From positions 1-31,295 of the IMG/VR virus record IMGVR_UViG_2617270940_000005: a DNA stretch of 31,295 nt. One strand, 5' to 3'. Source of the DNA: a virus (taxonomy: Duplodnaviria; Heunggongvirae; Uroviricota; Caudoviricetes). The first letter of the stretch is position 1; each line of letters opens with the position of its first letter. The translations under genes were made by a program, and so were the position numbers. Below are positions 2 to 28,189 of the stretch, piece after piece. A model generated the notes under the pieces. It did no database searches, was not told where the DNA came from, and saw only the letters and a program-made list of their open reading frames with translations.

Positions 2-2701
2 AATATAGTTAAATGCGATGTTTTTGACGGTGTTTTCCGCGTTACCAGCAGCGTTAACGGTGATGGTATGTCCATGTGAACCAATCGCAACGGAGTGCGT
101 ATGAGCACCAATACCGACAGTATGTGCGTGTGCACCTGCGCTTGCAGCAGTACCCGATACAGAGTGCGTATGAGCGCCTGCAGAAGAAGTGTTAACACTG
201 TATTTAGAATAATCAGGTGATCCACTTCCCGGAGCACCACTGGAACCACCTGAAACAAATGTCATCGAATGGGTATGTGCACCGGCTGAAGCAGCCGTAC
301 CGCTAACACTATGGGTATGCGCACCAGTGTTATTCGTGGATTTAGTGCCGTAATCAAACGACGATGTGGTTTTCGTCCCCAAATCCGTACTGGATGCGCT
401 GGCGCTGTGGGTGTGCGATTTAATGCCGTCCTGTTCCTGAGACAATACGGCACGACCACTGGCGGGCTTGCCCTTAATCGTCCAGCCACGCATATCAGGG
501 ATCACGCCTGACGGATACGCAACCGCAAGCAGGGGATAGGCTGCCTTATCAAAAGCCTGCCCCTGCATAATGGCATAGCCTGTAGGTACTGAATCAGAAG
601 GCCACGGAATCGCCGCACCTACCGGAAATGAATCCTGCGGCGTCCAAGGTGTCCAGCCACCCGTTGAATACTGGCTGCGGGTATAGCTTCTGGATGTGTT
701 ATACACATAGTAAATTTGTGTTATTCCGGCATTTTTAAGCACAACCAGAGTGCCCGCAAGGTTCTCCGGGTATTTCAGCGATGCGCTTGCATTCGCATTC
801 AGTGGCTGATGGTACAGCCCCGGCGTTTTGTAATTATCCAGATTCTGGTTTGCACCAATCTCAATACTCTGACTGTTAAAAATATCCTGCGATGTAACAT
901 TGACATCATTGGTCAGTGGTTTGCCATTGACCTTACGCTCGCCAGGAACGCGCCCGTTTGCATTATCATTAGCTGCTTTCACTGCTTTCGGTGTCGCGGC
1001 AAACGTTTCAGATGCGCTGTTGGTTGCACTACTGAGCTGGACAATTCCTTTTTGTGCTGTCGTAGCGTCCTGAGCAGTATATTTCCCGTTAGCAAGGTCA
1101 TAGGCTGCCTTTACCGACTTTGGCGTTGCCGCCAGCATTTCAGATGTGCTGTTGGTCGCGTTGCTAAGCTGAACTATCCCTTTCTGTGCTGTCGTTGCAT
1201 CCTGTGCGGTGTATTTCCCGTTAGCCAGGTCATACGCGGCCTTAACGGCTTTTGGTGTTGCCGCCAGTGACTCGGAAGTACTGTTGGTCTCACTGCTAAG
1301 TTGTACTATTCCCTTATTCGTCGTGCTTGCATCCTCAAGCGCCACGGCGGATGCAATATCCTCTGCCCGTTTTGCCGCTGTCTCAGAGCGTGTTGCCGCG
1401 GATTCTGCCGCATTTTTGCTCTGCGCAGCCGCCGTCGCACTGTCTGCCGCTTCCGTCGCCTTCGTTGATGCCGTTGTCGCACTCTCTGCTGCCGCTGACG
1501 CCTGGCGAGCGGCCTCATCTTTTGAAGATGACGCCGAGGAAGCTGAAACAGAGGCAGAGCTTGCAGATTCGGCTGCTGTCTCCTTAGAAGCAGCGGCATT
1601 GTTTTCTGAAGTCTTTGCATTGGTTTCAGAAGATTTTGCCGCCTCTGCTGACTTTTCCGCAGCTGTTGCCTGTTCCGTCGCCTCTGTCGCTTTAGCGGTG
1701 GCATTTGCCGCAGATAACGAAGCGCTTTCCGCAGACTTTTCTGCCGACGTTGCACTTGATGAAGCACTATCCGCGCTTATTGAGGCCGCGCTCGCTGACG
1801 TTTCTGCCGCAGATTTAGAACTGTTTGCAGACAATGCACTCTGTTCGGCAGCAGCTTCAGACGCTTTTGCGTTTGTCTCTGATGCTTTTGCTGCCTTACA
1901 TGAATTTGCAGCTTCTGTAGCTGATGATGCTGCCGCGTTTGCACTCGATGAAGCGTTAGTCTCTGATAATTTAGCCGCATCCTTAGATGCAGAGGCACTG
2001 GACGCTGATGTGGCTGCCTCCGATGCTTTAGTCGACGCCACAGATGCTGATTTTGCTGCCGCTTCTTTTGCCGCTTCTGCGTTTGTTTCAGATTTTTCCG
2101 CAGCAGCTGCACTCTCACTCGCCGCACTTTGTGAAGATACCGCAGCGGATGCACTTTGAGATGCCTGAGAGGCTTTTTCTACAGCAGTGTTGGCACTTTC
2201 TGCCGCAGCGACAGCACTGGCCGCCGCCTCCCGAGCTTTGTCTCCAGCGGCCTCAATCGCATCGGTGTTATTTTTATACCACTCAACGTTTTCGTTATGC
2301 TCGTTGACGATCTGCATTAGCGGCTTAACGGTCACTTCTGTACCGTCTTCACGCTCGATTGTCACATCATCCAGAGCGGTCAACCAACTGCGCATGGACT
2401 TGGAATCAGCCGACATACGCGACATTAGTGCAGTAAAGCGCGCACTAAACTGAGTTAAGTCGCCTTCATAGGTCGTAATGATTCGGCACGGAACTTTAGA
2501 TTGAGTTTCGCCGGTATAAGGTTCTGAGAGGACAATGACCGTATCACTGGTTACGCGCTTGACCTCATACAACTTATTGTCAGGACCAATGACAATCATG
2601 CCCGGTAACACGCCGTTTTCGGTCAAATTCCAACGTGTTCCGATGCCTGATATTGTGTCGCTTCCTTTTGTAAATGTAACAGTACCTTCTCTGTACCACA
2701 T
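2..2701 (-). CDS. stf: Side tail fibre protein, lambda Stf-like; C-terminal few residues lie beyond the window start
   Basis: Not in the ORF track because it has no stop inside the window. ATG at 2701-2699 with AAGGAG upstream. Translation reads [21 protein letters not shown]..., an Ala/Ser-rich coiled region, three 44-aa repeats ([39 protein letters not shown]), then [57 protein letters not shown] and His-rich [29 protein letters not shown], which match the lambda Stf C-terminal half as I recall it. Frame checked at both ends and mid-gene. Confidence 0.85.
949..1340 (-). repeat. Three tandem ~132-bp direct repeats inside stf (44-aa fibre repeats)
   Basis: Units at about 949-1080, 1081-1212 and 1213-1340 are visibly similar at nucleotide level (e.g. 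atttcccgttagc[a/c]aggtcata..gccgccag..ctgttggt..ctgctaag). Confidence 0.8.
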
Positions 2702-2743: not shown

Positions 2744-2755
2744 AAATAGGTATAT

Positions 2756-2765
2756 ACTTACTTAT
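2756..2765. repeat. Instance A of recurrent ACTTACTTAT / TAAGTA..TACTTA motif (half-site plus degenerate partner)
   Basis: acttacttat between J stop (2837) and stf start (2701). Confidence 0.5.
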
Positions 2766-2836: not shown

Positions 2837-5800
2837 TTAACTGATGCCCGACATGGAAAATGCGCCACTTCCACGGCTGATTAGCATCACGGGCGAATAA
2901 ATATGTGTCTGTGATGAACTGGTCACTTTTACCGTAACAGCAACAGTTCTTGAGGTAACATTGTTAAAAGCAGCGTAAAGAGTGCCACCGACGCCTGTAG
3001 AACTTGTCGAATTAAGATCAGGGTCTCTGTATGTAGCCCCCTTACCAGTGGCTGCGGTCTTCGTCACTCCATTGCAGGTAAATTGGGCTGCAACAGGGCC
3101 GACGCCCCCCGTATATACATTTATTGCCACATAAATATTTTTGGGCAATGCAGACGAAGAAGAGTCTGTATATGTCATTGTATATGTGCCGCTGTTACGA
3201 ACTGAGAAGTCATTGCCCACATACATGTTAGCGACATCGCCTACGAAGTGATCTGCTTGTACCGTGCCTCTGAATGTTCCGCTGGTAGCCTGTATTTCTC
3301 CTGTGAATTTGCCATTCGTTGCGTAAACGGTGCCTCTAACAGTTACATTGTTAAACTCTGAGTTCCCGTTTTTATTAATATGCCACCCCGTCATTCCGCT
3401 TGAGTAATCGTTGGACTGAATGAAGTTGCCTATTTTGGCGTTATCAATGGTGCCGTTCTTGATATAAGCTCCGTTCATATAAGCCACACCGGCATCAATA
3501 ACGAATGGCGTTGTAATTTTCCCATTAACGGAGTTCACCAAACCAAAGCGATCTGCCTGCACCAAAAACTGCGATAGACCTGTTGTGTCGATGCCCAACG
3601 CTATGCCGGCAACATATTTTTGGCCTCCGCTGGTGGAGGTTTCCATTTTCAGCGTCCAGGCTGTTGATACCTTCTTGTTCGTATCAGCAATAGCTGTGGC
3701 CTGTTGTTGAATTGTTGCTGTATTTCCATCTACTGATGCTTTTAAGGTGTCAATTCTCCCACTTAGTGCATTGTCGGCGCTTGTACGCGTAGTCGCTTCA
3801 GATGTAATCGCAGCATGAATATCTTTGCTCGTTTGAGCCTGTAGATTAGTGATATTAGAAGCCAAAGCGGAATCAGCATCAGTTCTGGCTTTCGTCTCTT
3901 TAGCTACAGCCGCCTTAATATCCTTGCCCGTTTGACTCTTCAATGTAGTTATCTGTTGTGCCAAAGATTCGTCGGCAGTTGCTCGGGCGTTTTTTTCTTC
4001 AGATATAGCGGCACTAATATCGCCTTCAACTTTGGCTTGTAACGATAGGACTTCTTTTGAAAGTGCTTCATCGGCACTGGCTCGCGCCTCTTGTTCACTC
4101 ACAATTGCGGCAGAAATGTCATCGTTAATCTTTGATTCAAGTTTGGTGATTCTGCTTCCAATAGCATTATCCGCATCTACACGAGCCGTAGTCTCTTCAG
4201 TGATTGAAGCTCTGATATCCTCATTTATTTCAGCTCTAATCTCTTCCATTTTCGTAGCCATTGCGGACATATCATCTGCAAAAGCCTTCTGAGTTGTGGC
4301 GATCCTGGCATTGCTCACCATCTGTTTGTGCTGGTCTTCATCCTGACGCAAAGCTAAATCGATGTTTGTTTTAGCCAATGCCTCAATGTTTGTCGTCACT
4401 TCGGCACTGGAGTGCTCGACTTCAGCCACGGTTTTTTTCATCTCTTCAATGGTGGCCAAACTGCTATCTACAGTTGACTTCATTGCCTCGATTTCTTTCG
4501 CGTTCGCCAAGTCGCCTTCGACTCGTGCCTCACGTTCCTCCGCAACTAAAGCCGATGAATTGTCCAGTGCTGCATTCGCGGCCTCAACCGCTCCAGCAAC
4601 GACCTTGTCTTGCTCTGAAACAGTTTCCTTCAACTGAATTAATGCGGCATTTGAGTTTTCAACCTCCTTAAGAGCCTCTTCCACCTTGCTGACAGTATTA
4701 GAAACTTCCGTTCTAAGAACGTTTTGGGCTTCTTCAATCCGTTGATCGGTCTCAGTAAATTTGTCATCAAGGCTTTTCAGGCTTTCTTCCATCTGCTTGT
4801 TGATTGCGTCGACGGCTTCCTGCGAGGCTTTGGTGTCGATTTCCTCAAGCAGTTCCTGCCCCAATTCCGAAGAAGTGATCTTCCCGGTCAGGAAAGACAG
4901 AACATCTTTCGTCATCGCCTCAGTGCCCAAATTGGAGTTGGGCTGGCTCAACATTCCGCGTTTGTTTGCTGCACGAACCCAATAGAACCAAGTTTCGCTA
5001 TCTCCAAGACCTGCGTGCGTAAAGGTGGTACTGGCTGCTTCGGCAATTAGTTTTGCAGTATCCAGGTTGTTGGTCCGGGATGCATACACGTTGATGTGAT
5101 CGAGGTCGATTGAGTCCGGGTTAACCCAATTCAGAATCACATTGCGGTAGTCGCCCACGGCCGTCAGTGCAGTCGGTGCATCCGGCGGCGTCATCGTCCC
5201 CTGAACTTTGTAGACGGTGCTGATAATTTCTGTTTTTTTACCGTTGAATGAAACCGCATACAGTTGGAAGTCGTAGCGTCCATTCTCCGCGACATTAACG
5301 ATTTCGTATTGCTCTTCGGTTACACGCGCCGATTGCCAGTTCGATACATTGTTTGCATCAGAACGTCGCCAACTGATCCAATACTCTGGAGATTTCCCTT
5401 CCCATGTTGCAGTCAGTTTTACTGACAGGTTGCCCGGGCTTGAGAGATAAGTCCCTTCAGTGATTTGCAAATTAGACGGCTTGGAGTAAGTCGGGTCCAA
5501 TACCGTCGTATTCTGCGGGATAAGCGTTGCACCATTGTCGATCGCCTCATATTTAGACGGATTGTTTTCAACAGCGGTGATGTCAAAGCTACCCGACGTT
5601 TCCCCCTGAGCGATGTTAACGATGCGAACGCGCATAGGTTCGAGATCTGGTTCTGTAATTGTCCAGACACCGTTCAAAACAGGCGTTTCCGCTGACGACA
5701 GGGCTTTTGAAAACGTAACTTTTGTTATATTTTCGCCAGTTTCAAGAACATCGCGTTCAACGATTTTGCCTTCCTGATTCAGTATTCGAATAAAGCAGCC

Positions 5801-9550: not shown

Positions 9551-9571
9551 AGTAAATTAGTACTTACTTAT
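9551..9571. repeat. Instance B of TAAGTA..TACTTA motif
   Basis: agtaaattagtacttacttat, between M stop and the terminator. Confidence 0.5.
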
Positions 9572-16050: not shown

Positions 16051-16071
16051 AGTAAGTATATATTTACTTAT
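16051..16071. repeat. Instance C of TAAGTA..TACTTA motif
   Basis: agtaagtatatatttacttat, in the gap upstream of the major tail gene. Confidence 0.5.
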
Positions 16072-19149: not shown

Positions 19150-19167
19150 TAAGTAGATAACTACTTA
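19150..19167. repeat. Instance D of TAAGTA..TACTTA motif
   Basis: taagtag-ataa-ctactta, perfect 7-bp arms; between capsid stop and the terminator. Confidence 0.6.
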
Positions 19168-21001: not shown

Positions 21002-22576
21002 TCACTCGGTCTCTTGAGTAGATGAGTCCCCATTCCCTCGGGGTTGATCTTGTCCGCTTTCTTGGACTGTATCGCGATCATAAGTAAGTACTGACTTATT
21101 TTCAAGGGCGCCAGGAGCATTTTTTAGAGGAAATTTCAAGAGATCTTTTTTAAATTCCTTTTGCATCGCTTCGGAAATATTCGGGAAGATCTTTTCTATG
21201 AGCATTTCCATCTGATGACGACGTACAGAATCAGGCGCCTGTAACAGCGACAATTTCTCAGCGACGGCAAATTCGTCAGTCAGACCACGAATATCGAAAC
21301 TCTCCGGGTAAGCGATCAGAGAGTGGTCTTCATCCAATTCGATGCCCATCCATTTCGCAGCCAACTCCATCATTTGGCGTTCTGCCCTTTCGAGGCGCTC
21401 TGCTTTTGTCACCAACAGACTGTTAATACGTTGGAAGTCGTACATCTTCGCTGCCCCCGAAGAGTTGTCGATACCCTGCGCGTTATCCTGCTTGGTTCGC
21501 TCACCAGCCACACCAACGGAATGGTAGATCTCATTAATCACCGTCTTAATCGTGGTGATGATCATCTGAGCCTGTTTCGGGTCTGGAGACAGATAGAATG
21601 GCTGATTACCGCTCTCAGAATCGAAGGTGAAGACACGTTTTGTCCCCATTTCGAGCACTTTGGTGTGGTTTTCATCGCCCGGCAGCAGGGACTGAACCGG
21701 AATCGCTAACTGGCTGAATGTCTGATCCTGAATAATCGCGTCAAGGTTCGACAGGTAGTTGGCCACGGCGCGATCAAGATAGGCAATATCGTCAATCAAC
21801 GACGGGCTAAAATACGGAGACTCGCTTTCACCAATGCAATCCACCGGGAACACCGGCACCACGCCCAGATTATGCTGGCCGCTATCCTCCAGAACGACTT
21901 TGGCCTGACGGCGACCGCTATTTCCGGAACCCTTCTTCACTTCTTCACGGAACAGATACCACTCGTTTTGCGTCCACAGACGGTAACGCTGGTATTCCTG
22001 CCCGGTTGAAGTGAACGGATCTTCGTCGTCGCGCGCGATTTCAACAATCAGCGCCCACAACATATTGCCGTCTTCATCCCAGGCAACATCAAGCAGCTGC
22101 TGCGGCGAAATCCAGTAAGCGTAGGCACGCGCATCATTTTTCTTCTCGTCTGCAACAGACTCAACATCGACGTTCATCGTGCTATCCACGACAACCCAGA
22201 TACGGCCATAAATGGATGATTGCAGATCGATAGCCGCCATAAACGCATCGATGGAGGCGTTCTGGCGCGTGGCTCGCTTCCAGAAATTGCGGATCTGCTC
22301 CGGTGCTTCATCAGTGTTGCGGTGAATGACCTCTTTGAAGAGGTATTTGTTGATGAGGTTTACCACTTCGCGCGTATGATTGAAGCGATAAGCGCGTTCC
22401 AGGCGCTCTTTGAACTCCTGATCGCCCTCTTTGAAGTAACGGAAGATATTGTCGTTGAACCAGGCACGCCCGCCAGCATAGGTGCTGGCGAGGAAGTCCC
22501 AATGTTCTTTTTTCTTCTCATATTCAGGGTGGCGTCGTGCCACAAGGTCTTTGATTTGCTTATCAGTCAATTCCAT
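21002..22576 (-). CDS. Portal protein candidate
   Basis: 524 aa immediately downstream of the large terminase with a 30-nt gap; acidic C-terminus; assigned by position and size. Confidence 0.6.
   Translation of the reverse strand: MELTDKQIKDLVARRHPEYEKKKEHWDFLASTYAGGRAWFNDNIFRYFKEGDQEFKERLERAYRFNHTREVVNLINKYLFKEVIHRNTDEAPEQIRNFWKRATRQNASIDAFMAAIDLQSSIYGRIWVVVDSTMNVDVESVADEKKNDARAYAYWISPQQLLDVAWDEDGNMLWALIVEIARDDEDPFTSTGQEYQRYRLWTQNEWYLFREEVKKGSGNSGRRQAKVVLEDSGQHNLGVVPVFPVDCIGESESPYFSPSLIDDIAYLDRAVANYLSNLDAIIQDQTFSQLAIPVQSLLPGDENHTKVLEMGTKRVFTFDSESGNQPFYLSPDPKQAQMIITTIKTVINEIYHSVGVAGERTKQDNAQGIDNSSGAAKMYDFQRINSLLVTKAERLERAERQMMELAAKWMGIELDEDHSLIAYPESFDIRGLTDEFAVAEKLSLLQAPDSVRRHQMEMLIEKIFPNISEAMQKEFKKDLLKFPLKNAPGALENKSVLTYDRDTVQESGQDQPRGNGDSSTQETE
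21080..21099. repeat. Instance F of TAAGTA..TACTTA motif (inside the portal 3' coding region)
   Basis: ataagtaagt-actgacttat, 20-bp palindrome with one mismatch; a half-site gttacttatcac at 20994-21005 overlaps the portal stop. Confidence 0.5.
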
Positions 22577-22592: not shown

Positions 22593-22612
22593 TTAAGTAA
22601 GCACTTACTTAT
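22593..22612. repeat. Instance G of TAAGTA..TACTTA motif
   Basis: ttaagtaag-ca-cttacttat, overlaps the large terminase stop, ~17 nt upstream of the portal start. Confidence 0.6.
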
Positions 22613-23865
22613 CTAGATCCACCAAGAATAACACGATTTTTCACTGGATACCTACGATGAACCGGATACCCCAACGCATCCGCACTGTGCTCGACGCCGC
22701 CTGTCTTATCCATATCGCGTGAGCCTGGCTTGTAGATCACCTTCTCCAGCGAGTCGATGAGGTGTTTGCACTTCGGATCGACGTACAACCGGGTTTCGCC
22801 CGAGGCACTCATCAACATGCGGTTCACGGCGTTCACACGGTCTGCGATCGGTGGGTGTTTCTTCGGATAGTCGACTCGAAGGAAACCTTTCTCTTTGAAG
22901 ATGTCGACGTCAGATTCGCCGCGTGCGTGCTGGCGATACGCACCTGCCGGGTCAGGAAAGATAGTGACCTGAGATTTCCAGCGCCAGTATCGACGCTCCA
23001 GCTCGTCACACACTTCAGCCGTGTTAGAAGAGAACAACACCAATTCGTCCACAGCCCACAGTTCACCATTTGGCTGCGGTTGCAGGATGACCGAGGACAT
23101 AGGGTCAATGTTGAAGTCCTGACCAACCCAGATCGGAAGTTTCGGGTTGAACTGGAGTGGCTTCACATGCACATCGCGATCGAACGGGTAATAAACGCGT
23201 CCGGACATGTTTTCGAAGCTGGCCAGGTATTCCTGTGCGAACGATTTAGGGTCCATATCGTTCTTCGCTGCTTCGATTTCCGCGCTCGGTACGAACGGAG
23301 AATCGGCCGTAACGAACTGCCAGCTCTTCCACTGCCCCTTGCGTTGCAAATCTTTGTTCTGACCGATAGTCCACAGCTTGTGGAACTCGGAGAAGCCTTT
23401 TGGCGTACCGATGATCAGCGCACCGCCACGGGTGGAGGACAGTGTCGGACGCAGTACCTTGTACCAGGTGTCAGGCTTCATATCCTGAAATTCATCGAGC
23501 ACCACAAAGTGCAGTGCCACACCACGAAGCGTATCGGGCTTATCCGCACCTTTCAGCGCGATTTCAGAGCCGTTCTTCAGCACGATGGTCATCGTGGTGT
23601 CGTTTTTCTTACGAACCCATTTGCGCGGCAGAACTTCCTGCAGGTCATCCCACAAGATCTGGCGAGCCATCTGGTAAGTCGGTGCGACATACCAGACACG
23701 TTGCTTCTTCTCTTTGGCTGCCGCGCGGATGATGGTGGAGATCGACAACCGGGATTTACCCCAGCGTCGACCCGCACACACCACTTTGAAACGATGTGGC
23801 GACTGGAAGACTTGCATCTGCCCAGAATGCAGCTGTACGAGACTCAGAGACGACGGGATGGCCAT
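22609..23865 (-). CDS. Terminase large subunit
   Basis: 418 aa; Walker A VVCAGRRWGKS, Walker B HFVVLDEFQD, nuclease-domain motif WVGQDFNIDPMSSV. Confidence 0.85.
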   Translation of the reverse strand: MAIPSSLSLVQLHSGQMQVFQSPHRFKVVCAGRRWGKSRLSISTIIRAAAKEKKQRVWYVAPTYQMARQILWDDLQEVLPRKWVRKKNDTTMTIVLKNGSEIALKGADKPDTLRGVALHFVVLDEFQDMKPDTWYKVLRPTLSSTRGGALIIGTPKGFSEFHKLWTIGQNKDLQRKGQWKSWQFVTADSPFVPSAEIEAAKNDMDPKSFAQEYLASFENMSGRVYYPFDRDVHVKPLQFNPKLPIWVGQDFNIDPMSSVILQPQPNGELWAVDELVLFSSNTAEVCDELERRYWRWKSQVTIFPDPAGAYRQHARGESDVDIFKEKGFLRVDYPKKHPPIADRVNAVNRMLMSASGETRLYVDPKCKHLIDSLEKVIYKPGSRDMDKTGGVEHSADALGYPVHRRYPVKNRVILGGSR

Positions 23866-23867
23866 AG

Positions 23868-24509
23868 TCAGACGCTCCCATCACTTTCATCACCAGACGC
23901 GTCAGAATCGCCCTCAGCTTCGCTCAGTGCTTCCTCTTCGAGTGACTCAAGCAGATCGTCATCAATCAGATCCGGCTCATCATCTTCCTTACGCAGCTGC
24001 GCCACCTGGGAAGGCGTAAGTTCGCCAAATACCAGGTTCGGGATTTCGTCTTCTTCGTTCTCAGCGCGATCCATACCGAGCGCTTTCGACGATATTTCGA
24101 AGCACTTAGCGAGTGTTCCGCTGGCACGCTGGAGACTCTTCAGGTCATCTTCGATGGCTGCCAGTGGCCTGCCGTCCTTCTTGGCTGTGGCCACCTCATG
24201 CATCACCATACGACCGAGTGCGAACGCCCAATCGTCGTAACGAGTCCGGCGCTCTTCGATTTTCTCTGCACGCGCCTTCGCACGCAGCTCTGCGTCGGAT
24301 TTGAGCGACTCGCGCACCATCTTCCCAACGGAGTCCGCGCCTTTCTCTAATCCACGCTTTTTGAAATGTCTGGAGAGCGTTTCACGACGAATGCCGTACT
24401 CTTCCTCCAGCCTGGAGAGTGTGTATTCGCCGGAAGTCCACTTCGCTTCAGCTTCTGCCCACCCAGCTGGTGTCAGGCGAGTTTTGCTCTCGTCTTTTTC
24501 TACAGTCAT
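23868..24509 (-). CDS. Terminase small subunit candidate (HTH N-terminus, acidic C-terminal tail)
   Basis: 213 aa immediately upstream of the large terminase; helix-turn-helix-like TLSRLEEEYGIRRETLSRHFKKRG; AGAGGGA RBS. Confidence 0.55.
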   Translation of the reverse strand: MTVEKDESKTRLTPAGWAEAEAKWTSGEYTLSRLEEEYGIRRETLSRHFKKRGLEKGADSVGKMVRESLKSDAELRAKARAEKIEERRTRYDDWAFALGRMVMHEVATAKKDGRPLAAIEDDLKSLQRASGTLAKCFEISSKALGMDRAENEEDEIPNLVFGELTPSQVAQLRKEDDEPDLIDDDLLESLEEEALSEAEGDSDASGDESDGSV

Positions 24510-24610
24510 AGATCCCTCTAAAACACTCAGAGCGCATCCTTGCGCTTCTAAACAACTTGTTTAATTCAGTGCCTAACCAATTTGTTTTCTTGGTGTTTAA
24601 AACCGGGCTG

Positions 24611-24696
24611 GGGAGTATTCAGAACCTGCTTCCGTATATATTTAATAAGTCACTTAGTATTTATATATACGGAAGCAGGCTCTCAAACTGACTCCC
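24611..24696. promoter_or_regulatory. Long dyad-symmetry element: 17-bp perfect inverted repeat with central TAAGT-C-ACTTA palindrome
   Basis: cctgcttccgtatatat (24625-24641) and atatatacggaagcagg (24663-24679), flanked by gggagt/actccc (24611-16 / 24691-96); spacer holds taagtcactta (24646-24656). Lies between the six-gene operon and the small terminase gene. Confidence 0.6.
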
Positions 24697-24704
24697 AGAC
24701 CGAC

Positions 24705-24971
24705 TTACATCACCAGTAATTTGGCTCTGGCACGACCTAACGTGGTCAGTCCCAGCGTGCGACGGTGGTAGCCGGAATCACCGCGCTGGCGGCACATTCC
24801 TTTCTCCACCAGCCCCTTTTTCACCAGTGCGCGGATAGAGAACTGCATACTCTGTTTGGTCGTTTTGTACGGCAGCACTTCAAGCAGCTCGTCCAGATCG
24901 AGCAGATGCCCACGCTCATGGCCTAAATTGATGGTTTTGATGATGTCTTTTTGTTTGTCGGTCAACGTCAT
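24705..24971 (-). CDS. Small basic protein, possible winged-helix DNA-binding protein
   Basis: 88 aa; last gene of the coupled operon; KQSMQFSIRALVKKGLVEK looks like a recognition helix. Confidence 0.4.
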   Translation of the reverse strand: MTLTDKQKDIIKTINLGHERGHLLDLDELLEVLPYKTTKQSMQFSIRALVKKGLVEKGMCRQRGDSGYHRRTLGLTTLGRARAKLLVM

Positions 24972-24980
24972 GGCAAATCC

Positions 24981-25880
24981 TTATGCCGGTAATGCAATTT
25001 CAAGAGGTTTATTCAAAGGCTGTTTGTCGAATGCCAGCAGTGGCAGCGTGTCCGGCAGCTGACGACCAAAGTCCGGGTTTCGGTACACGCCATACAGCGG
25101 AGACGTGAAGCTCAGGTTGTGAATGTCCTTGAGCAGCTTCACGATGCTGGCCTCGTCCACCAGGCTGTCGGCAATGTCCTGAATCGTCGTGCCACGATTA
25201 CGCCCGGCTTTGGCCAGGGAACTGTTCTTGTGGTAGTCAGCGACCAGATCACGCAGCGCACGACGACGGCGAGACTCACTCATGGCGAACAGCTCTTTGA
25301 CGATCGCTTCGTTGTCGCCAGGGTCAGAACGGAAATGACGCTGGAAGACGCGCAACGCACTCTCATAGCTCTTCGGACGCTCCGGACGGATGAATTGGAA
25401 CCCTGCTTTCATGGCGAACGGGTTGTATTTGCTCATCGACGACTGGATCTCGATGATTGGCCGGTCGTGCATCCTGCTAACCAGGTTAATCATTCGATAG
25501 GAGACGCCGACACCGCGGTACTGAGTGTCAACAACGGAACGGCTGATCACGGCAAAGTTGTTGTTCACGTACCGGCCCCAATACTGGTTGGCCACGGTGG
25601 TATTGGTGGTTGGCTTCAGCTTAGGAAACATGCGATGGCGAGGCGCCAGCAGCAGTTTCGGGTAAGCCATAACCACGACGCCCACCAACCGGTCGTCCAG
25701 TTCGCAGCGATAATACGTTGGCGCGAACGGCTTACCATCCGTCTTGTAGTGCAGCGACTTCAGCGCGTGCCAGTCTTCAACCGTGCCTTTGGTAACGGTC
25801 ATACGCTCCAGAAAGTTCAGATGACGCGGGAACTCTTCCGGGCGGTAGCGTTTGATGATGATGCCTGTCATGTCGATCAC
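24981..25880 (-). CDS. Hypothetical protein with possible GNAT-like acyltransferase fold
   Basis: 299 aa; VISRSVVDTQYRGVGVSYRMINLV resembles GNAT motif A (R/Q-x-x-G-x-G/A). Track start is GTG overlapping the upstream stop; alternative ATG at 25871. Confidence 0.3.
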   Translation of the reverse strand: MIDMTGIIIKRYRPEEFPRHLNFLERMTVTKGTVEDWHALKSLHYKTDGKPFAPTYYRCELDDRLVGVVVMAYPKLLLAPRHRMFPKLKPTTNTTVANQYWGRYVNNNFAVISRSVVDTQYRGVGVSYRMINLVSRMHDRPIIEIQSSMSKYNPFAMKAGFQFIRPERPKSYESALRVFQRHFRSDPGDNEAIVKELFAMSESRRRRALRDLVADYHKNSSLAKAGRNRGTTIQDIADSLVDEASIVKLLKDIHNLSFTSPLYGVYRNPDFGRQLPDTLPLLAFDKQPLNKPLEIALPA

Positions 25881-26131
25881 CTGCGCTCGATATTGGCATT
25901 GATGAAGTCCAGGCGAAGCGATTCCATCGCCCCAACCATGACGTATGGACGCCCACCGTTATGCCAGCAATCCATAACATTGCCGTCGTTGTCGATCATC
26001 AGCAGAGCCAGGCTCTGACTTTTGCCTTCTCTTGCGTACTGGAGTGCTTCTTCCAGCAGGCGGATGACTTCAACGTTGTTGTTGTCAGTCTCTTTCGATG
26101 GCTTCAGCTCTACGATCTTCAAATCAGGCAT
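25877..26131 (-). CDS. Hypothetical 84-aa protein
   Basis: Overlaps the ATPase gene end by 8 nt and the downstream gene start; no recognisable motif. Confidence 0.45.
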   Translation of the reverse strand: MPDLKIVELKPSKETDNNNVEVIRLLEEALQYAREGKSQSLALLMIDNDGNVMDCWHNGGRPYVMVGAMESLRLDFINANIERR

Positions 26132-26762
26132 ATTCCACCTTCACACGTTCTTTGTAGTGCTTGGTGATCTGCATATCCGGGCGCAGCGCGTTCTTCAGAT
26201 CTTCGTGGGTCGTCGCCACCATTACCGTTGCGCCGACCTTACGAGCAGCACGTTGGAGGTTTGACGCCACAACCTGAGCGGTTACCCGGTCGAGAACAGC
26301 ACCAAATTCGTCTGCTGCCCAGACTTTGGCGCCGGACTCGATCAGCTTGGCGATCTTGAGACGGTATTTCTGGCCGTCAGACATCTCGGATGGCTTGCGC
26401 ACAAAAAGATAGGCGTCATTCAATCCGGCCATAGACAGCAAGCCCAGCGCTTCACTGGTGGTTTTGCCCAGCTGGTCGATGACGTTAACCTCATTGTCGA
26501 AATTAAAATTATCGATGGAGGCCACAGAAAGCCCTTCATCTTTCATCTGGCGTTGTAGCTCGCGCAGAACAACAGATTTACCTGAACCGGATTGGCCGGT
26601 GATGTACACCACATCGCCCTGCTTCACTTCCAGCTCCAGATTGTCGTAAAGCGTCCACTCTTTTTCGTCCAGGCCAAGACCGAACGATTCGGCAATCTCC
26701 AGCGTGCGCGTGGTTTTGTTCACGCGAGTCTGAAACGATACATTGATGGTGTATTTGCTCAT
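26124..26762 (-). CDS. Small ABC-type ATPase (nucleotide-binding domain only)
   Basis: 212 aa; Walker A GQSGSGKS, signature-like MSDGQKYRL, Walker B/D-loop KVWAADEFGAVLD, H-loop VATTHEDL; start ATG overlaps the upstream stop (ATGA). Confidence 0.8.
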   Translation of the reverse strand: MSKYTINVSFQTRVNKTTRTLEIAESFGLGLDEKEWTLYDNLELEVKQGDVVYITGQSGSGKSVVLRELQRQMKDEGLSVASIDNFNFDNEVNVIDQLGKTTSEALGLLSMAGLNDAYLFVRKPSEMSDGQKYRLKIAKLIESGAKVWAADEFGAVLDRVTAQVVASNLQRAARKVGATVMVATTHEDLKNALRPDMQITKHYKERVKVEYA

Positions 26763-27427
26763 GCAGCCAGCTCCCCAGAGGAAACTTTCTCCGCATACGC
26801 CACGAAAGCGTCTACCCCGCTTTCTCCCGTAATTTCTTCCATGTGGGCAAGCAAATCCCCAACCACAATGGCAGAGCCAGCAGGGAGCGTTTTAAAGCCC
26901 AATACGTCGATGACTCGGACTTCTTCAGAGGCTACTTCGCGACTGATCCCGGTGTGCTCTTCTTTCTGGCGTTCCGTCTCTTCACCCAGATCGAGCACCA
27001 GAGAGCCTGTTTCCATCTCTTCGGTCATGCTGCCAACAAGCACGTTCAGCTCTCGCTCTTCAAAACCAAAGACCTCAACGTCACCCAGCACCAGGGACTC
27101 CAGTTCCTGCTGCAATTTGATGGCGTCGTAGTCAATACTGGCCAGGCGGTTGTCTTCAAGACGCTTCGCCTTCACTTCTTCTTCGCTCAGATCGTCGCGA
27201 ACGATGACAGGCACACGCTCCAGACCAGCCAGAAGTGCCGCCTCGCGACGACCGTGACCAGTAATGATGACGTCGTGCTTGTCGACCGTGATCGGCTGGT
27301 CAAAACCGCGCTTTTTGATGGCAGCCGCCAGGTCGCGGATCTGCTGTTCGTCATGTTTTTTGGCGTTCATCTCATACGGGATAAGTTCTGCCGGGTTTCG
27401 ATATACGATTTCAAAGTTCTTGGTCAT
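26759..27427 (-). CDS. ParB/Srx-like N-terminal domain protein (second of tandem pair)
   Basis: Start refined to ATG 27427, overlapping the upstream stop (TAATG). ParB-type motif ITGHGRREAALLAGLERVPVIV; acidic helical C-terminal half. Confidence 0.75.
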   Translation of the reverse strand: MTKNFEIVYRNPAELIPYEMNAKKHDEQQIRDLAAAIKKRGFDQPITVDKHDVIITGHGRREAALLAGLERVPVIVRDDLSEEEVKAKRLEDNRLASIDYDAIKLQQELESLVLGDVEVFGFEERELNVLVGSMTEEMETGSLVLDLGEETERQKEEHTGISREVASEEVRVIDVLGFKTLPAGSAIVVGDLLAHMEEITGESGVDAFVAYAEKVSSGELAA

Positions 27428-28107
27428 TACATACGCTCCTTGTAGTAGTCGACCAGCCACACCAAGGCTTCCCCGGCGTTCTCCATTTCGTTACCGGTAT
27501 TGATTCCCTGCTCTTTGATGATGGTTTTGATGGTATCGGCGACGCGATCTGACGCATCGAACGTCACTTTGAAGCGCATCGTCTGGTGTTCAGCACCGAC
27601 TCGCTCGATTTTCTCGCGTTTGTCCTCACCGATCGGCTCGTCATCGCCGCGGGAGAGCGCTTCCAGCGCTTCAAGATCGATAACGGATGCTTTGGCGAGC
27701 GTTGCCGCCATTTCGTCGTCATACGGGGCGATATCAGACAACCGGTAGTCAATTTCAGACTGAATTTCTTCGATTAAGCGTTGCAAAGCGATCTGATCGT
27801 CTTCGCCGTAGCGCTCGTTATCGACGAGAGACATCTGTTTGGCCACCAGGTCGTTAATTTTTCCCACCGAGATGACGGGAACCGTTGAAATGCCCTGCTC
27901 CATCGCGGCACGCCAGCGATGTTCGCCACCGAGAATCTCAAAAATGCCGCCGTCCAGCTCTCGCGCCAGAATTGGCTTAAAAAAGCCCAACTTTTCGATG
28001 GAACCTTTCAGTTTTTCGAAGTTTTGCGCCCCAACGGAGTTGGTATTCCAGGGGTTCGGACGCAGGTTCGCGACTTCCACCTGTAGAATCGTAATTTTCA
28101 CATCCAT
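27427..28107 (-). CDS. ParB/Srx-like N-terminal domain protein (first of tandem pair)
   Basis: 226 aa; LRPNPWN...ILGGEHRWRAAMEQGISTVPVI matches the ParB N-terminal domain arginine-rich motif; first gene of the operon. Confidence 0.75.
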   Translation of the reverse strand: MDVKITILQVEVANLRPNPWNTNSVGAQNFEKLKGSIEKLGFFKPILARELDGGIFEILGGEHRWRAAMEQGISTVPVISVGKINDLVAKQMSLVDNERYGEDDQIALQRLIEEIQSEIDYRLSDIAPYDDEMAATLAKASVIDLEALEALSRGDDEPIGEDKREKIERVGAEHQTMRFKVTFDASDRVADTIKTIIKEQGINTGNEMENAGEALVWLVDYYKERM

Positions 28108-28189
28108 ATTTTTGATACAATCTATTGTGTAAGTACTTACTTAACATAATAGCCAATTACCATACAAAAGGCACGAAGGAAAGAGGTTT
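28108..28189. promoter_or_regulatory. Divergent intergenic control region between the ParB operon and the helicase operon
   Basis: 82-bp AT-rich gap between divergent starts, containing the motif palindrome and possible -35/-10-like hexamers (TTGATA, CATAAT) with non-ideal spacing. Confidence 0.5.
28129..28140. repeat. Instance H of TAAGTA..TACTTA motif (perfect 12-bp palindrome)
   Basis: gtaagtacttac, followed by ttaacat. Confidence 0.65.

What the first reader, a model, noticed from the sequence alone, without database searches (positions are those of the whole stretch)
24611..24696. 86-bp dyad-symmetry element upstream of the small terminase gene: candidate pac/cos or master operator
A perfect 17-bp inverted repeat (cctgcttccgtatatat / atatatacggaagcagg) with outer gggagt/actccc arms encloses a 21-bp AT-rich spacer whose centre is a copy of the recurrent motif (taagtcactta). 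The element sits 8 nt after the operon's last gene and about 100 nt before the small terminase start, a position where packaging initiation sites are often found. As RNA it would form a long hairpin that could terminate the upstream operon.
Basis: partly seen in the sequence, partly recalled or inferred. Interest (0 to 1): 0.62.

Follow-up and report, generated by a model that had tools for sequence, protein, structure and literature searches.

The report
Conserved hairpin before phage terminase genes
The 86-bp palindrome is real and strongly conserved, but it is one of three sister hairpins in SSU5-type phage-plasmids; the other two look like ordinary transcription stop signals, so it is more likely a leaky stop or insulator before the DNA-packaging genes than a proven packaging site.

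Summary
A perfect 17-bp inverted repeat (24625-24641 / 24663-24679) flanks a 21-nt AT-rich spacer, with outer arms. It lies 8 nt after an 88-aa gene and 101 nt before the probable small terminase gene; all of these are on the minus strand. As RNA it folds at -51 kcal/mol (z = -8).

The window is an SSU5-like phage-plasmid, 99% identical to Salmonella phage SSU5. The element is not unique. Every SSU5-like genome carries three paralogous copies: A (this one), B (before the helicase/primase genes) and C (after the Dam methylase gene). B and C are followed at once by a T-run in 39 of 40 unique variants, as in classic intrinsic terminators. Copy A never is (0 of 20). In this lineage TTTT follows only the outer stem.

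My best reading (about 0.45) is a leaky terminator or RNA-end hairpin that insulates the late packaging operon. The better operator candidates are two 13-bp palindromes at 24550-24587.

The pac/cos reading survives (about 0.25), because the SSU5 GenBank record is cut inside the spacer (24642|24643). Four points weigh against it:
- The element has three copies.
- TerL is not of a cos type.
- No bases are duplicated or lost at the record junction.
- Distant relatives lack the hairpin.

Interest is moderate to low.

The parts
24663..24679 (-). 5' arm of the inner stem as transcribed (minus strand: CCTGCTTCCGTATATAT)
   Evidence: Perfect 17-nt inverted repeat. 65% of its columns are invariant across 47 unique relatives.
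24642..24662 (-). 21-nt AT-rich spacer or loop. It contains the mini-palindrome TAAGT-N-ACTTA (24646-24656). The SSU5 GenBank record is cut between 24642 and 24643.
   Evidence: 67% of columns are invariant. The central base is free to vary (G, C or A), as expected at a dyad centre.
24625..24641 (-). 3' arm of the inner stem as transcribed (minus strand: ATATATACGGAAGCAGG)
   Evidence: 76% of columns are invariant.
24691..24702 (-). 5' outer arm (minus strand: CGGTCTGGGAGT)
   Evidence: It pairs with 24603-24616 in the minimum-energy fold. It is present in copies A and C of SSU5. It is less conserved than the core.
24603..24616 (-). 3' outer arm (minus strand: ACTCCCCAGCCCGG)
24599..24602 (-). 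TTTT on the minus strand directly after the outer stem. This is the only T-run associated with this copy.
   Evidence: It is present in Salmonella-type lineages and replaced by TAATTAA in the Klebsiella and E. coli lineages.
24575..24587 (.). 13-bp palindrome O1 (AAACAAATTGGTT on the minus strand). It is a candidate operator.
   Evidence: The same motif lies at about +1 of at least 10 sigma-70-like promoter cassettes in SSU5. It is deleted in one E. coli lineage.
24550..24562 (.). 13-bp perfect palindrome O2 (AAACAAGTTGTTT on the minus strand). It is a candidate operator.
   Evidence: 80% of columns are invariant.
24530..24547 (-). Small hairpin in the 5' untranslated region before the TerS ribosome-binding site (AGCGC-AAGGAT-GCGCT)
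   Evidence: Relatives keep it through compensatory changes (GAGCAC/GTGCTC and CGGCGC/GCGCCG).
23868..24509 (-). Probable small terminase (213 aa; SSU5_001, annotated 'DNA binding domain')
   Evidence: It lies directly upstream of TerL and belongs to phrog_867. The AlphaFold model shows an HTH plus a coiled coil.
24705..24971 (-). Last gene of the upstream ParB-like/ATPase operon (88 aa, phrog_900, function unknown)
   Evidence: Its adjacency to TerS is kept even in Xenorhabdus and Morganella relatives.

Best explanation
The element is copy A of a three-member family of roughly 95-130-nt hairpin cassettes. These cassettes sit at major boundaries between gene groups in SSU5-like phage-plasmids.

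Proposed mechanism. The element is transcribed on the minus strand as the 3' end of the ParB-like/ATPase operon. The RNA folds into a 17-bp perfect stem, extended by the outer arms. In this lineage the extended stem is followed by UUUU. The element therefore acts as a weak, leaky intrinsic terminator and as a barrier protecting the RNA 3' end. It separates the upstream operon from the late packaging and head operon.

Tight control of read-through most likely comes from the two 13-bp palindromes between the hairpin and TerS. These are the same motif that overlaps the start sites of many other promoters of the phage.

What is shown: the structure, its conservation, the three paralogues, and the T-run contrast between A and B/C. 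What is inferred: termination, leakiness and the operator role.
For: - The hairpin is very stable (-51.2 kcal/mol, z = -7.95). It starts 8 nt after a stop codon, and all flanking genes are on the same strand.
- SSU5 has three copies: at its record ends, at 33458 and at 78304. All three loci are conserved in the Salmonella, E. coli and Klebsiella lineages.
- Copies B and C are followed at once by runs of 4-6 T in 39 of 40 unique variants (the other has 3), even though the surrounding sequence differs between lineages. The T-run lies only on the downstream, sense side. B and C therefore meet the definition of intrinsic terminators.
- Going by the SSU5 annotation, the three copies separate structural/lysis/partition genes, replication and nucleotide-metabolism genes, and accessory/regulatory genes.
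- No sigma-70-like promoter is found between 23800 and 25200. Read-through into TerS is therefore a real issue for the phage.
- In the window lineage TTTT follows the outer stem. In a more distant relative (L196, TerS 73% identical) copy A has GCAGGCTTTTAACC.
- Position 9 of the stem shows C-G, U-G and U-A states. G-U wobbles fall on the sense strand 8 times against 1 in copy A and 5 against 1 in copy B.
Against: - Copy A has no T-run of 3 or more after the inner stem in any of 20 unique variants. In the Klebsiella and E. coli lineages none follows the outer stem either. It therefore fails the U-tract criterion in most relatives.
- The 55-nt core is conserved as sequence, not only as structure. 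65-76% of its columns are invariant, against 16-20% in the flanks. The covariation term is only -0.33 kcal/mol.
- Copies A and B are identical within the Klebsiella lineage. A plain terminator needs neither a fixed loop nor fixed arms, so some sequence-specific partner or frequent gene conversion must be added to the explanation.
- The simple terminator scan did not call the element; its 21-nt loop lies outside that scan's 3-8-nt loop limit.
Confidence: 0.45

Rival explanations
1. Packaging site. The palindrome, alone or with flanking sequence, is where the SSU5-type terminase starts packaging or makes the genome end. This could be a pac site, the boundary of a terminal repeat, or a cos site with about 19-nt staggered cuts symmetric about the dyad centre at 24652.
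For: - The SSU5 record, which I presume was assembled from virion DNA, ends at window 24643 and starts at 24642, 1 nt inside the spacer. By chance a cut would fall in this 55-nt core with probability of about 5e-4 (inference).
- That start point was not copied from pHCM2, whose record starts elsewhere.
- The element lies 101 nt upstream of the probable TerS, which has an N-terminal HTH.
- The core is conserved as sequence.
- Copy A systematically lacks the T-run that its paralogues keep, as if it had another role.
Against: - There are three near-identical copies per genome, and A equals B over 55 nt in the Klebsiella lineage. For a cos phage this would cut the chromosome into pieces. For a headful phage it is tolerable.
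- TerL matches Terminase_6N/Terminase_3. Its nearest outside relatives are Jersey-like, K1ind/Dhillonvirus-like and T5-like phages at 26-30% identity. From my own knowledge these are headful or terminal-repeat packagers, not lambda-, HK97- or P2-type cos phages.
- The SSU5 junction matches the circular sequence exactly, with no filled-in or lost overhang.
- The cut lies at the inner edge of the inverted repeat. That is where an overlap assembler would break a contig at a repeat boundary (inference).
- Cyrano's identical start may simply follow SSU5.
- Xenorhabdus and Morganella relatives have no hairpin there.
- No end-mapping was found in the literature.
Confidence: 0.25
2. DNA-level protein-binding palindrome. 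The inverted CCTGCTTCCG boxes flank a 35-bp AT-rich centre that melts easily. This site could be bound by a phage protein as an origin of lytic replication, as a roadblock, or as a recombination site. It would be present at three places in the genome.
For: - The arms and spacer are nearly invariant, while pairing is not always kept: G-A, A-A and C-A mismatches are tolerated.
- The central base of the dyad is free to vary.
- Copy B sits directly upstream of the hypothetical-gene / DnaB-like helicase / primase cluster. The hairpin with the start of that cluster (hypothetical gene and DnaB-like helicase) also occurs in a 61-kb Enterobacter plasmid.
- The architecture resembles palindromic origins with an AT-rich centre (my own knowledge; a lead only).
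Against: - The T-runs at B and C are one-sided and follow the direction of transcription. This points to an RNA-level role.
- All copies sit just after stop codons.
- No binding protein is identified.
- No promoter overlaps the element.
- The plasmid replicon typed for these elements is IncFIB. The only rep-type gene annotated in SSU5, the 'replication helicase' SSU5_069 at about 60 kb, lies far from all three hairpin copies. I did not test whether it corresponds to the IncFIB typing.
Confidence: 0.15
3. No specific function at copy A. It is a decayed duplicate of the terminator cassette that lost its T-run. It stays similar to its paralogues through gene conversion rather than selection.
For: - There is concerted evolution of A and B.
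- The phage encodes its own recombinase and exonuclease, according to the SSU5 annotation.
- TA-repeat length varies by slippage.
- The hairpin is absent in distant relatives.
Against: - The core of copy A is more conserved than the adjacent coding sequence across lineages whose flanks have diverged.
- The absence of a T-run is itself consistent across 20 variants.
- Copy A is retained in 46 of the 47 unique upstream sequences with full coverage of the region; a further sequence (L053) was cut by its contig end.
Confidence: 0.1

Closest known systems
Rho-independent (intrinsic) transcription terminators, for example lambda tR' or T7 T-phi
   Same: A stable stem-loop lies just after a stop codon on the transcribed strand. 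Paralogues B and C have the U-tract directly after the stem.
   Different: The stem is unusually long: 17 bp perfect, or about 38 bp with the outer arms. The loop and arms are fixed in sequence and shared by three loci. Copy A lacks the U-tract after the inner stem.
Phage packaging sites: lambda cos (cosN/cosB), and the SPP1 and P1 pac sites
   Same: It is an intergenic element close to the small terminase gene. It has dyad symmetry. A deposited virion genome starts inside it.
   Different: It is not unique in the genome. TerL is not of a cos type. No physical ends have been mapped. No overhang signature appears at the record junction. It has no GATC clusters of the P1 pac kind.
RNase III processing hairpins between phage T7 early genes
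   Same: Several related long hairpins separate genes within long transcripts that run in one direction. A perfect stem of 17 bp or more is close to substrate length.
   Different: No cleavage data exist. The internal loop typical of T7 sites is not evident. This resemblance comes from memory and was not tested.
Intergenic repeated palindromes of enterobacteria (ERIC/IRU, REP)
   Same: It is an imperfect palindrome of about 100 nt in a transcribed intergenic region. It shares a short TAAGTGACT-like core with ERIC (from memory).
   Different: It is confined to SSU5-like plasmids. 1336 of 1340 places in 5426 E. coli genomes are on plasmids, with three loci per element. It is not a dispersed chromosomal family.

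Membership tests
Intrinsic terminator | Stable GC-containing stem-loop in the transcript, downstream of a stop codon | tested here: met
   -51.2 kcal/mol, z = -7.95. It lies 8 nt after the stop of the 88-aa gene.
Intrinsic terminator | U-rich tract immediately 3' of the stem | tested here: inconclusive
   The inner-stem tail is UUCUGAAU, and 0 of 20 unique copy-A variants have a T-run of 3 or more. In this window UUUU follows the outer stem, but this is lost in the Klebsiella and E. coli lineages. Paralogues B and C meet the criterion in 39 of 40 variants.
Intrinsic terminator | RNA 3' ends and termination observed at the site | not testable with these tools
   No transcript data are available.
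cos site (cohesive-end packaging) | Virion DNA ends map to the site, with a defined overhang | not testable with these tools
   The only evidence is indirect. The SSU5 record is cut at 24642|24643 with no duplicated or missing bases. No end-mapping paper was found.
cos site (cohesive-end packaging) | Single copy per genome | tested here: not met
   SSU5 and all lineages have three copies. E. coli genomes show a median of 6 places each, which is 3 loci counted on both strands.
cos site (cohesive-end packaging) | Large terminase of a cos-type clade (lambda GpA, HK97 or P2 type) | tested here: not met
   Pfam Terminase_6N and Terminase_3. The nearest outside relatives are Jersey-like, K1ind-like and T5-like phages at 26-30% identity. 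Assigning those groups to packaging modes rests on my own knowledge.
pac site (headful packaging) | Lies in or next to the small terminase gene | tested here: met
   101 nt upstream of the probable TerS.
pac site (headful packaging) | Terminase binding or cleavage here, and permuted, terminally redundant virion DNA | not testable with these tools
   This needs virion read data or biochemistry.
Operator of a transcription regulator | Palindrome overlapping a promoter, repeated at other regulated promoters | tested here: not met
   No promoter-like site lies in 23800-25200. The other two copies follow genes rather than precede promoters. The 13-bp palindromes at 24550-24587 do match a motif that sits at promoter start sites elsewhere.
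Dispersed intergenic repeat or MITE (ERIC/REP-like) | Many copies spread over host chromosomes at variable loci | tested here: not met
   Only 4 of 1340 places are on chromosomes. The element is found in 260 of 5426 E. coli genomes, on plasmids of about 100-115 kb, at three orthologous loci.
Known RNA family (Rfam) | Match at or above a family's gathering score | tested here: not met
   Only generic hairpin (microRNA precursor) matches appeared, far below gathering score.

The most novel reading that the evidence does not exclude
The hairpin is the site where the SSU5-type terminase initiates packaging or makes the chromosome end. The family would then use a terminator-like palindrome both as an RNA signal and as a DNA packaging signal. 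The two sister copies would be either extra start sites or decoys made inactive by their flanks. This would define the so far unmapped packaging site of a widespread group of phage-plasmids that includes pHCM2 of S. Typhi and the related region of Yersinia pestis plasmids.
Probability: 0.22. Interest if true: 0.6.

Novelty: new variant of a known kind. Interest (0 to 1): 0.35.

Why it matters
SSU5-like phage-plasmids are common in Salmonella, E. coli, Klebsiella, Enterobacter and Yersinia pestis, with 798 plasmid records matching here. Some carry resistance genes (PMC9600943). I found no description of their packaging site or of how their transcription units are organised.

Knowing that the genome is punctuated by three sequence-fixed hairpin cassettes gives concrete targets for experiments. 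So does knowing that the cassette before the terminase genes is the only one without a T-run. If it is a packaging site, it would allow prediction of which plasmids can be packaged and transduced. If it is an insulator, it explains how late genes are kept silent in the plasmid state.

Tried and rejected
- Rfam at a permissive threshold gave only generic hairpin hits.
- Literature searches for SSU5 ends, cos, PhageTerm and headful packaging found nothing relevant. The SSU5 genome paper and the Gilcrease and Casjens D6 paper are not held.
- I looked for independent contigs or records ending in the hairpin:
  - IMG/VR loci, Logan and NCBI contigs read straight through it.
  - PhiR41_1 is deposited as circular and starts at a gene.
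  - pHCM2 starts elsewhere.
  - So there is no second witness for a terminus.
- The mobile-repeat idea is rejected, because the element is restricted to these plasmids at three fixed loci.
- The covariation test was uninformative: the arms hardly vary, and the covariation term is -0.33 kcal/mol.
- A first count of G-U pairs was symmetric, because palindromes were picked up on both strands. It was redone with oriented sequences.
- Confirming TerS by sequence or fold search gave no significant hit. Only the predicted architecture supports it.
- Pfam and PHROG searches of the genes next to copies B and C gave no functional clue.

Full report
**What the window is.** The region around the finding is 99% identical to Salmonella phage SSU5 (NC_018843). 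It is 82-84% identical to E. coli and Klebsiella phage-plasmids of the same group. 798 plasmid records from Klebsiella, Escherichia, Enterobacter, Yersinia, Salmonella and others match it. The window is the whole contig JNPB01000033.1.

All genes near the element lie on the minus strand. An operon of two ParB-like proteins, an ABC-type ATPase, an 84-aa protein, a 299-aa ATPase-like protein and an 88-aa protein ends at 24705. After the element come a 213-aa protein (24509-23868), TerL (Pfam Terminase_6N/Terminase_3) and the portal.

The 213-aa protein has no significant family or structure match. Its AlphaFold model shows an N-terminal three-helix HTH followed by a long coiled coil. With its position before TerL, this fits a small terminase.

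**The observation.** It is correct.
- The arms are 24625-24641 and 24663-24679, 17 of 17 complementary.
- The spacer is 21 nt.
- The outer arms GGGAGT and ACTCCC are part of longer imperfect arms (24603-24616 / 24691-24702).
- The gaps are 8 nt to the upstream stop and 101 nt to the downstream start.
- No shuffle of the window produced the arm even with three mismatches.
- The minus-strand RNA folds at -51.2 kcal/mol, z = -7.95.
- Rfam holds nothing like it.

The 'recurrent motif' needs a correction. TAAGTCACTTA itself occurs only here. The recurrent element is an 18-bp palindrome, TAAGTAAGTACTTACTTA. It has seven sites in the window and about 30 in SSU5, nearly all intergenic. The spacer centre is a variant with one extra central base.

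**The element is one of three.** A search of the whole SSU5 genome found three copies:
- Copy A lies at the record ends and is the one in this window.
- Copy B lies at 33458, between a DUF2971 gene and the hypothetical / DnaB-like helicase / primase cluster.
- Copy C lies at 78304, just after the Dam methylase gene.

A pattern scan of IMG/VR found the same three loci in the Salmonella, E. coli and Klebsiella lineages. In complete E. coli genomes the element is found in 260 of 5426 genomes. 1336 of 1340 places are on plasmids. The median of six places per genome is three loci counted on both strands. It is therefore specific to this phage-plasmid group and is not a dispersed repeat.

**The contrast between the copies.** Directly after the inner stem, B and C carry a run of 4-6 T in 39 of 40 unique variants; the remaining variant has 3. 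Examples are TCTTTTTC, TCTTTTAAAA, CTTTTTAAG and CTGTTTTG. Copy A has none in 20 unique variants (TTCTGAAT, CTTAGTAAG, CTCTTAAT).

The T-run lies on the downstream, sense side only. It is kept although the surrounding sequence differs between lineages. B and C thus meet the definition of intrinsic terminators.

In the window's lineage TTTT follows the outer stem of A. In the Klebsiella and E. coli lineages it is replaced by TAATTAA. A more distant relative (L196, TerS 73% identical) has GCAGGCTTTTAACC at copy A. Relatives in Xenorhabdus and Morganella (TerS 56-57% identical) keep the 88-aa gene and TerS side by side but have no hairpin.

**Conservation.** Across 47 unique sequences upstream of TerS, the share of invariant columns differs sharply by region:

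| Region | Invariant columns |
|---|---|
| 55-nt core (arms and spacer) | 65-76% |
| Flanks of the core | 16-20% |
| End of the adjacent coding sequence | 57% |

The arms hardly vary, so covariation is uninformative (covariation term -0.33 kcal/mol). Position 9 of the stem passes through C-G, U-G and U-A. G-U wobbles fall on the sense strand more often than on the antisense strand in A (8 against 1) and in B (5 against 1). However, G-A, A-A and C-A mismatches are also tolerated.

The loops of A and B change together between lineages. Both read AAATACTAAGT in the Salmonella type. In Klebsiella, A and B are identical over 55 nt. This indicates gene conversion or a shared sequence-specific partner.

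**Downstream of the hairpin.** Two 13-bp palindromes, AAACAAnTTGkTT, lie at 24575-24587 and 24550-24562. In SSU5 the same motif sits at about +1 of at least ten promoter cassettes of the form -35 / GATAAT / AAGAAAACAAnTTGTTTAA between 80 and 95 kb. These palindromes, rather than the 86-bp dyad, are the operator-like sites.

No sigma-70-like promoter was found between 23800 and 25200. A small hairpin in the 5' untranslated region (24530-24547) shows compensatory changes in relatives.

**The packaging question.** The SSU5 GenBank record ends at the base equivalent to window 24643 and begins at 24642. That is 1 nt inside the spacer. This is too precise to be chance. It was not copied from pHCM2, whose record starts elsewhere. 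Cyrano (OV696614) starts at the same point. However, it is a re-annotated plasmid that its authors compared with SSU5, and their paper reports no end mapping.

Two readings remain. The first is a true terminus. The second is a contig break at the inner edge of an inverted repeat in a 454 assembly. That is where an overlap assembler would see a repeat boundary, and the three copies are among the few repeats in the genome (inference).

Six points weigh against a cohesive-end site:
- There are three copies.
- The junction is exactly continuous with the circular sequence.
- TerL is of the Terminase_6N/Terminase_3 type.
- Its nearest outside relatives are Jersey-like, K1ind/Dhillonvirus-like and T5-like phages at 26-30% identity.
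- Distant relatives have no hairpin.
- No second independent record or contig ends there.

A pac site or a terminal-repeat boundary is not excluded. I found no publication that maps SSU5 ends.

**Verdict.** The most likely reading is that the element is the T-run-poor member of a family of terminator cassettes. It would act as a leaky terminator, an RNA-end hairpin and an insulator between the ParB-like/ATPase operon and the late packaging operon. The neighbouring 13-bp palindromes would provide the regulated block (confidence about 0.45).

The rivals are:
- a packaging site or terminus (about 0.25);
- a DNA-level protein-binding palindrome, such as a lytic origin (about 0.15);
- a decaying duplicate kept similar by gene conversion (about 0.1).

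The unusual features are the fixed sequence, the three paralogues and the systematic loss of the T-run at the terminase copy. They make this a variant of a known kind rather than a routine terminator. Nothing here is categorically new.

Noticed in passing
window 2747-2765, 9553-9571, 16053-16071, 19150-19167, 21081-21099, 22594-22612, 28126-28143: An 18-bp palindrome, TAAGTAAGTACTTACTTA, recurs in intergenic regions of the late operon. SSU5 has about 30 copies, mostly 17-70 nt before the next start codon. At 21105-21077 (minus strand) it fills the 17-nt spacer of a TTGAAA/TATGAT promoter-like site. It is probably the site of a phage-wide regulator.
   Followed up: partly
window 24550-24562 and 24575-24587; SSU5 (L008) 80-95 kb: The 13-bp palindrome AAACAAnTTGTTT occurs twice before TerS. 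It also lies at about +1 of at least 10 sigma-70-like promoter cassettes in the accessory-gene region of SSU5. It looks like the operator of a repressor.
   Followed up: partly
window 24530-24547: A small hairpin in the 5' untranslated region has an AAGGAT loop and lies just before the TerS ribosome-binding site. Relatives keep it through compensatory changes. Similar AAGGA-loop hairpins follow the 18-bp motif before other late genes (near 2700 and 9520).
   Followed up: partly
NC_018843 record ends = window 24642|24643: The deposited SSU5 genome is linearised inside the palindrome spacer. Cyrano (OV696614) starts at the same point.
   Followed up: yes
L200 (Photobacterium ganghwense NZ_PYMI01000008.1) 1-60: A 148-kb contig ends 282 nt upstream of a TerS homologue (47% identity), in a TA-rich stretch followed by TTGGAAGCAAGG. 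This resembles ATATATACGGAAGCAGG of the SSU5 arm. It could be another assembly break, or a terminus, at an equivalent element. The other contig end could not be fetched.
   Followed up: no
window 24981-28107 (minus strand): The operon upstream of the terminase genes encodes two ParB N-terminal-domain proteins and two ABC/AAA-type ATPases. This gene set is of unknown role and is conserved next to the packaging genes.
   Followed up: no
window 953-1348: Three tandem 132-nt repeats (75% and 61% identity to the first) lie in an ORF-rich region at the left end of the window.
   Followed up: no
L004 (NZ_CP062831.1) 5001-5055 and L005 (NZ_CP116350.1) 5001-5056: A hairpin of this family occurs outside complete SSU5-like elements. 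One is on a 141-kb conjugative IncF plasmid between IS elements. The other, a B-type copy, is on a 61-kb Enterobacter plasmid next to a hypothetical gene, a DnaB-like helicase gene and a third, unannotated gene.
   Followed up: partly
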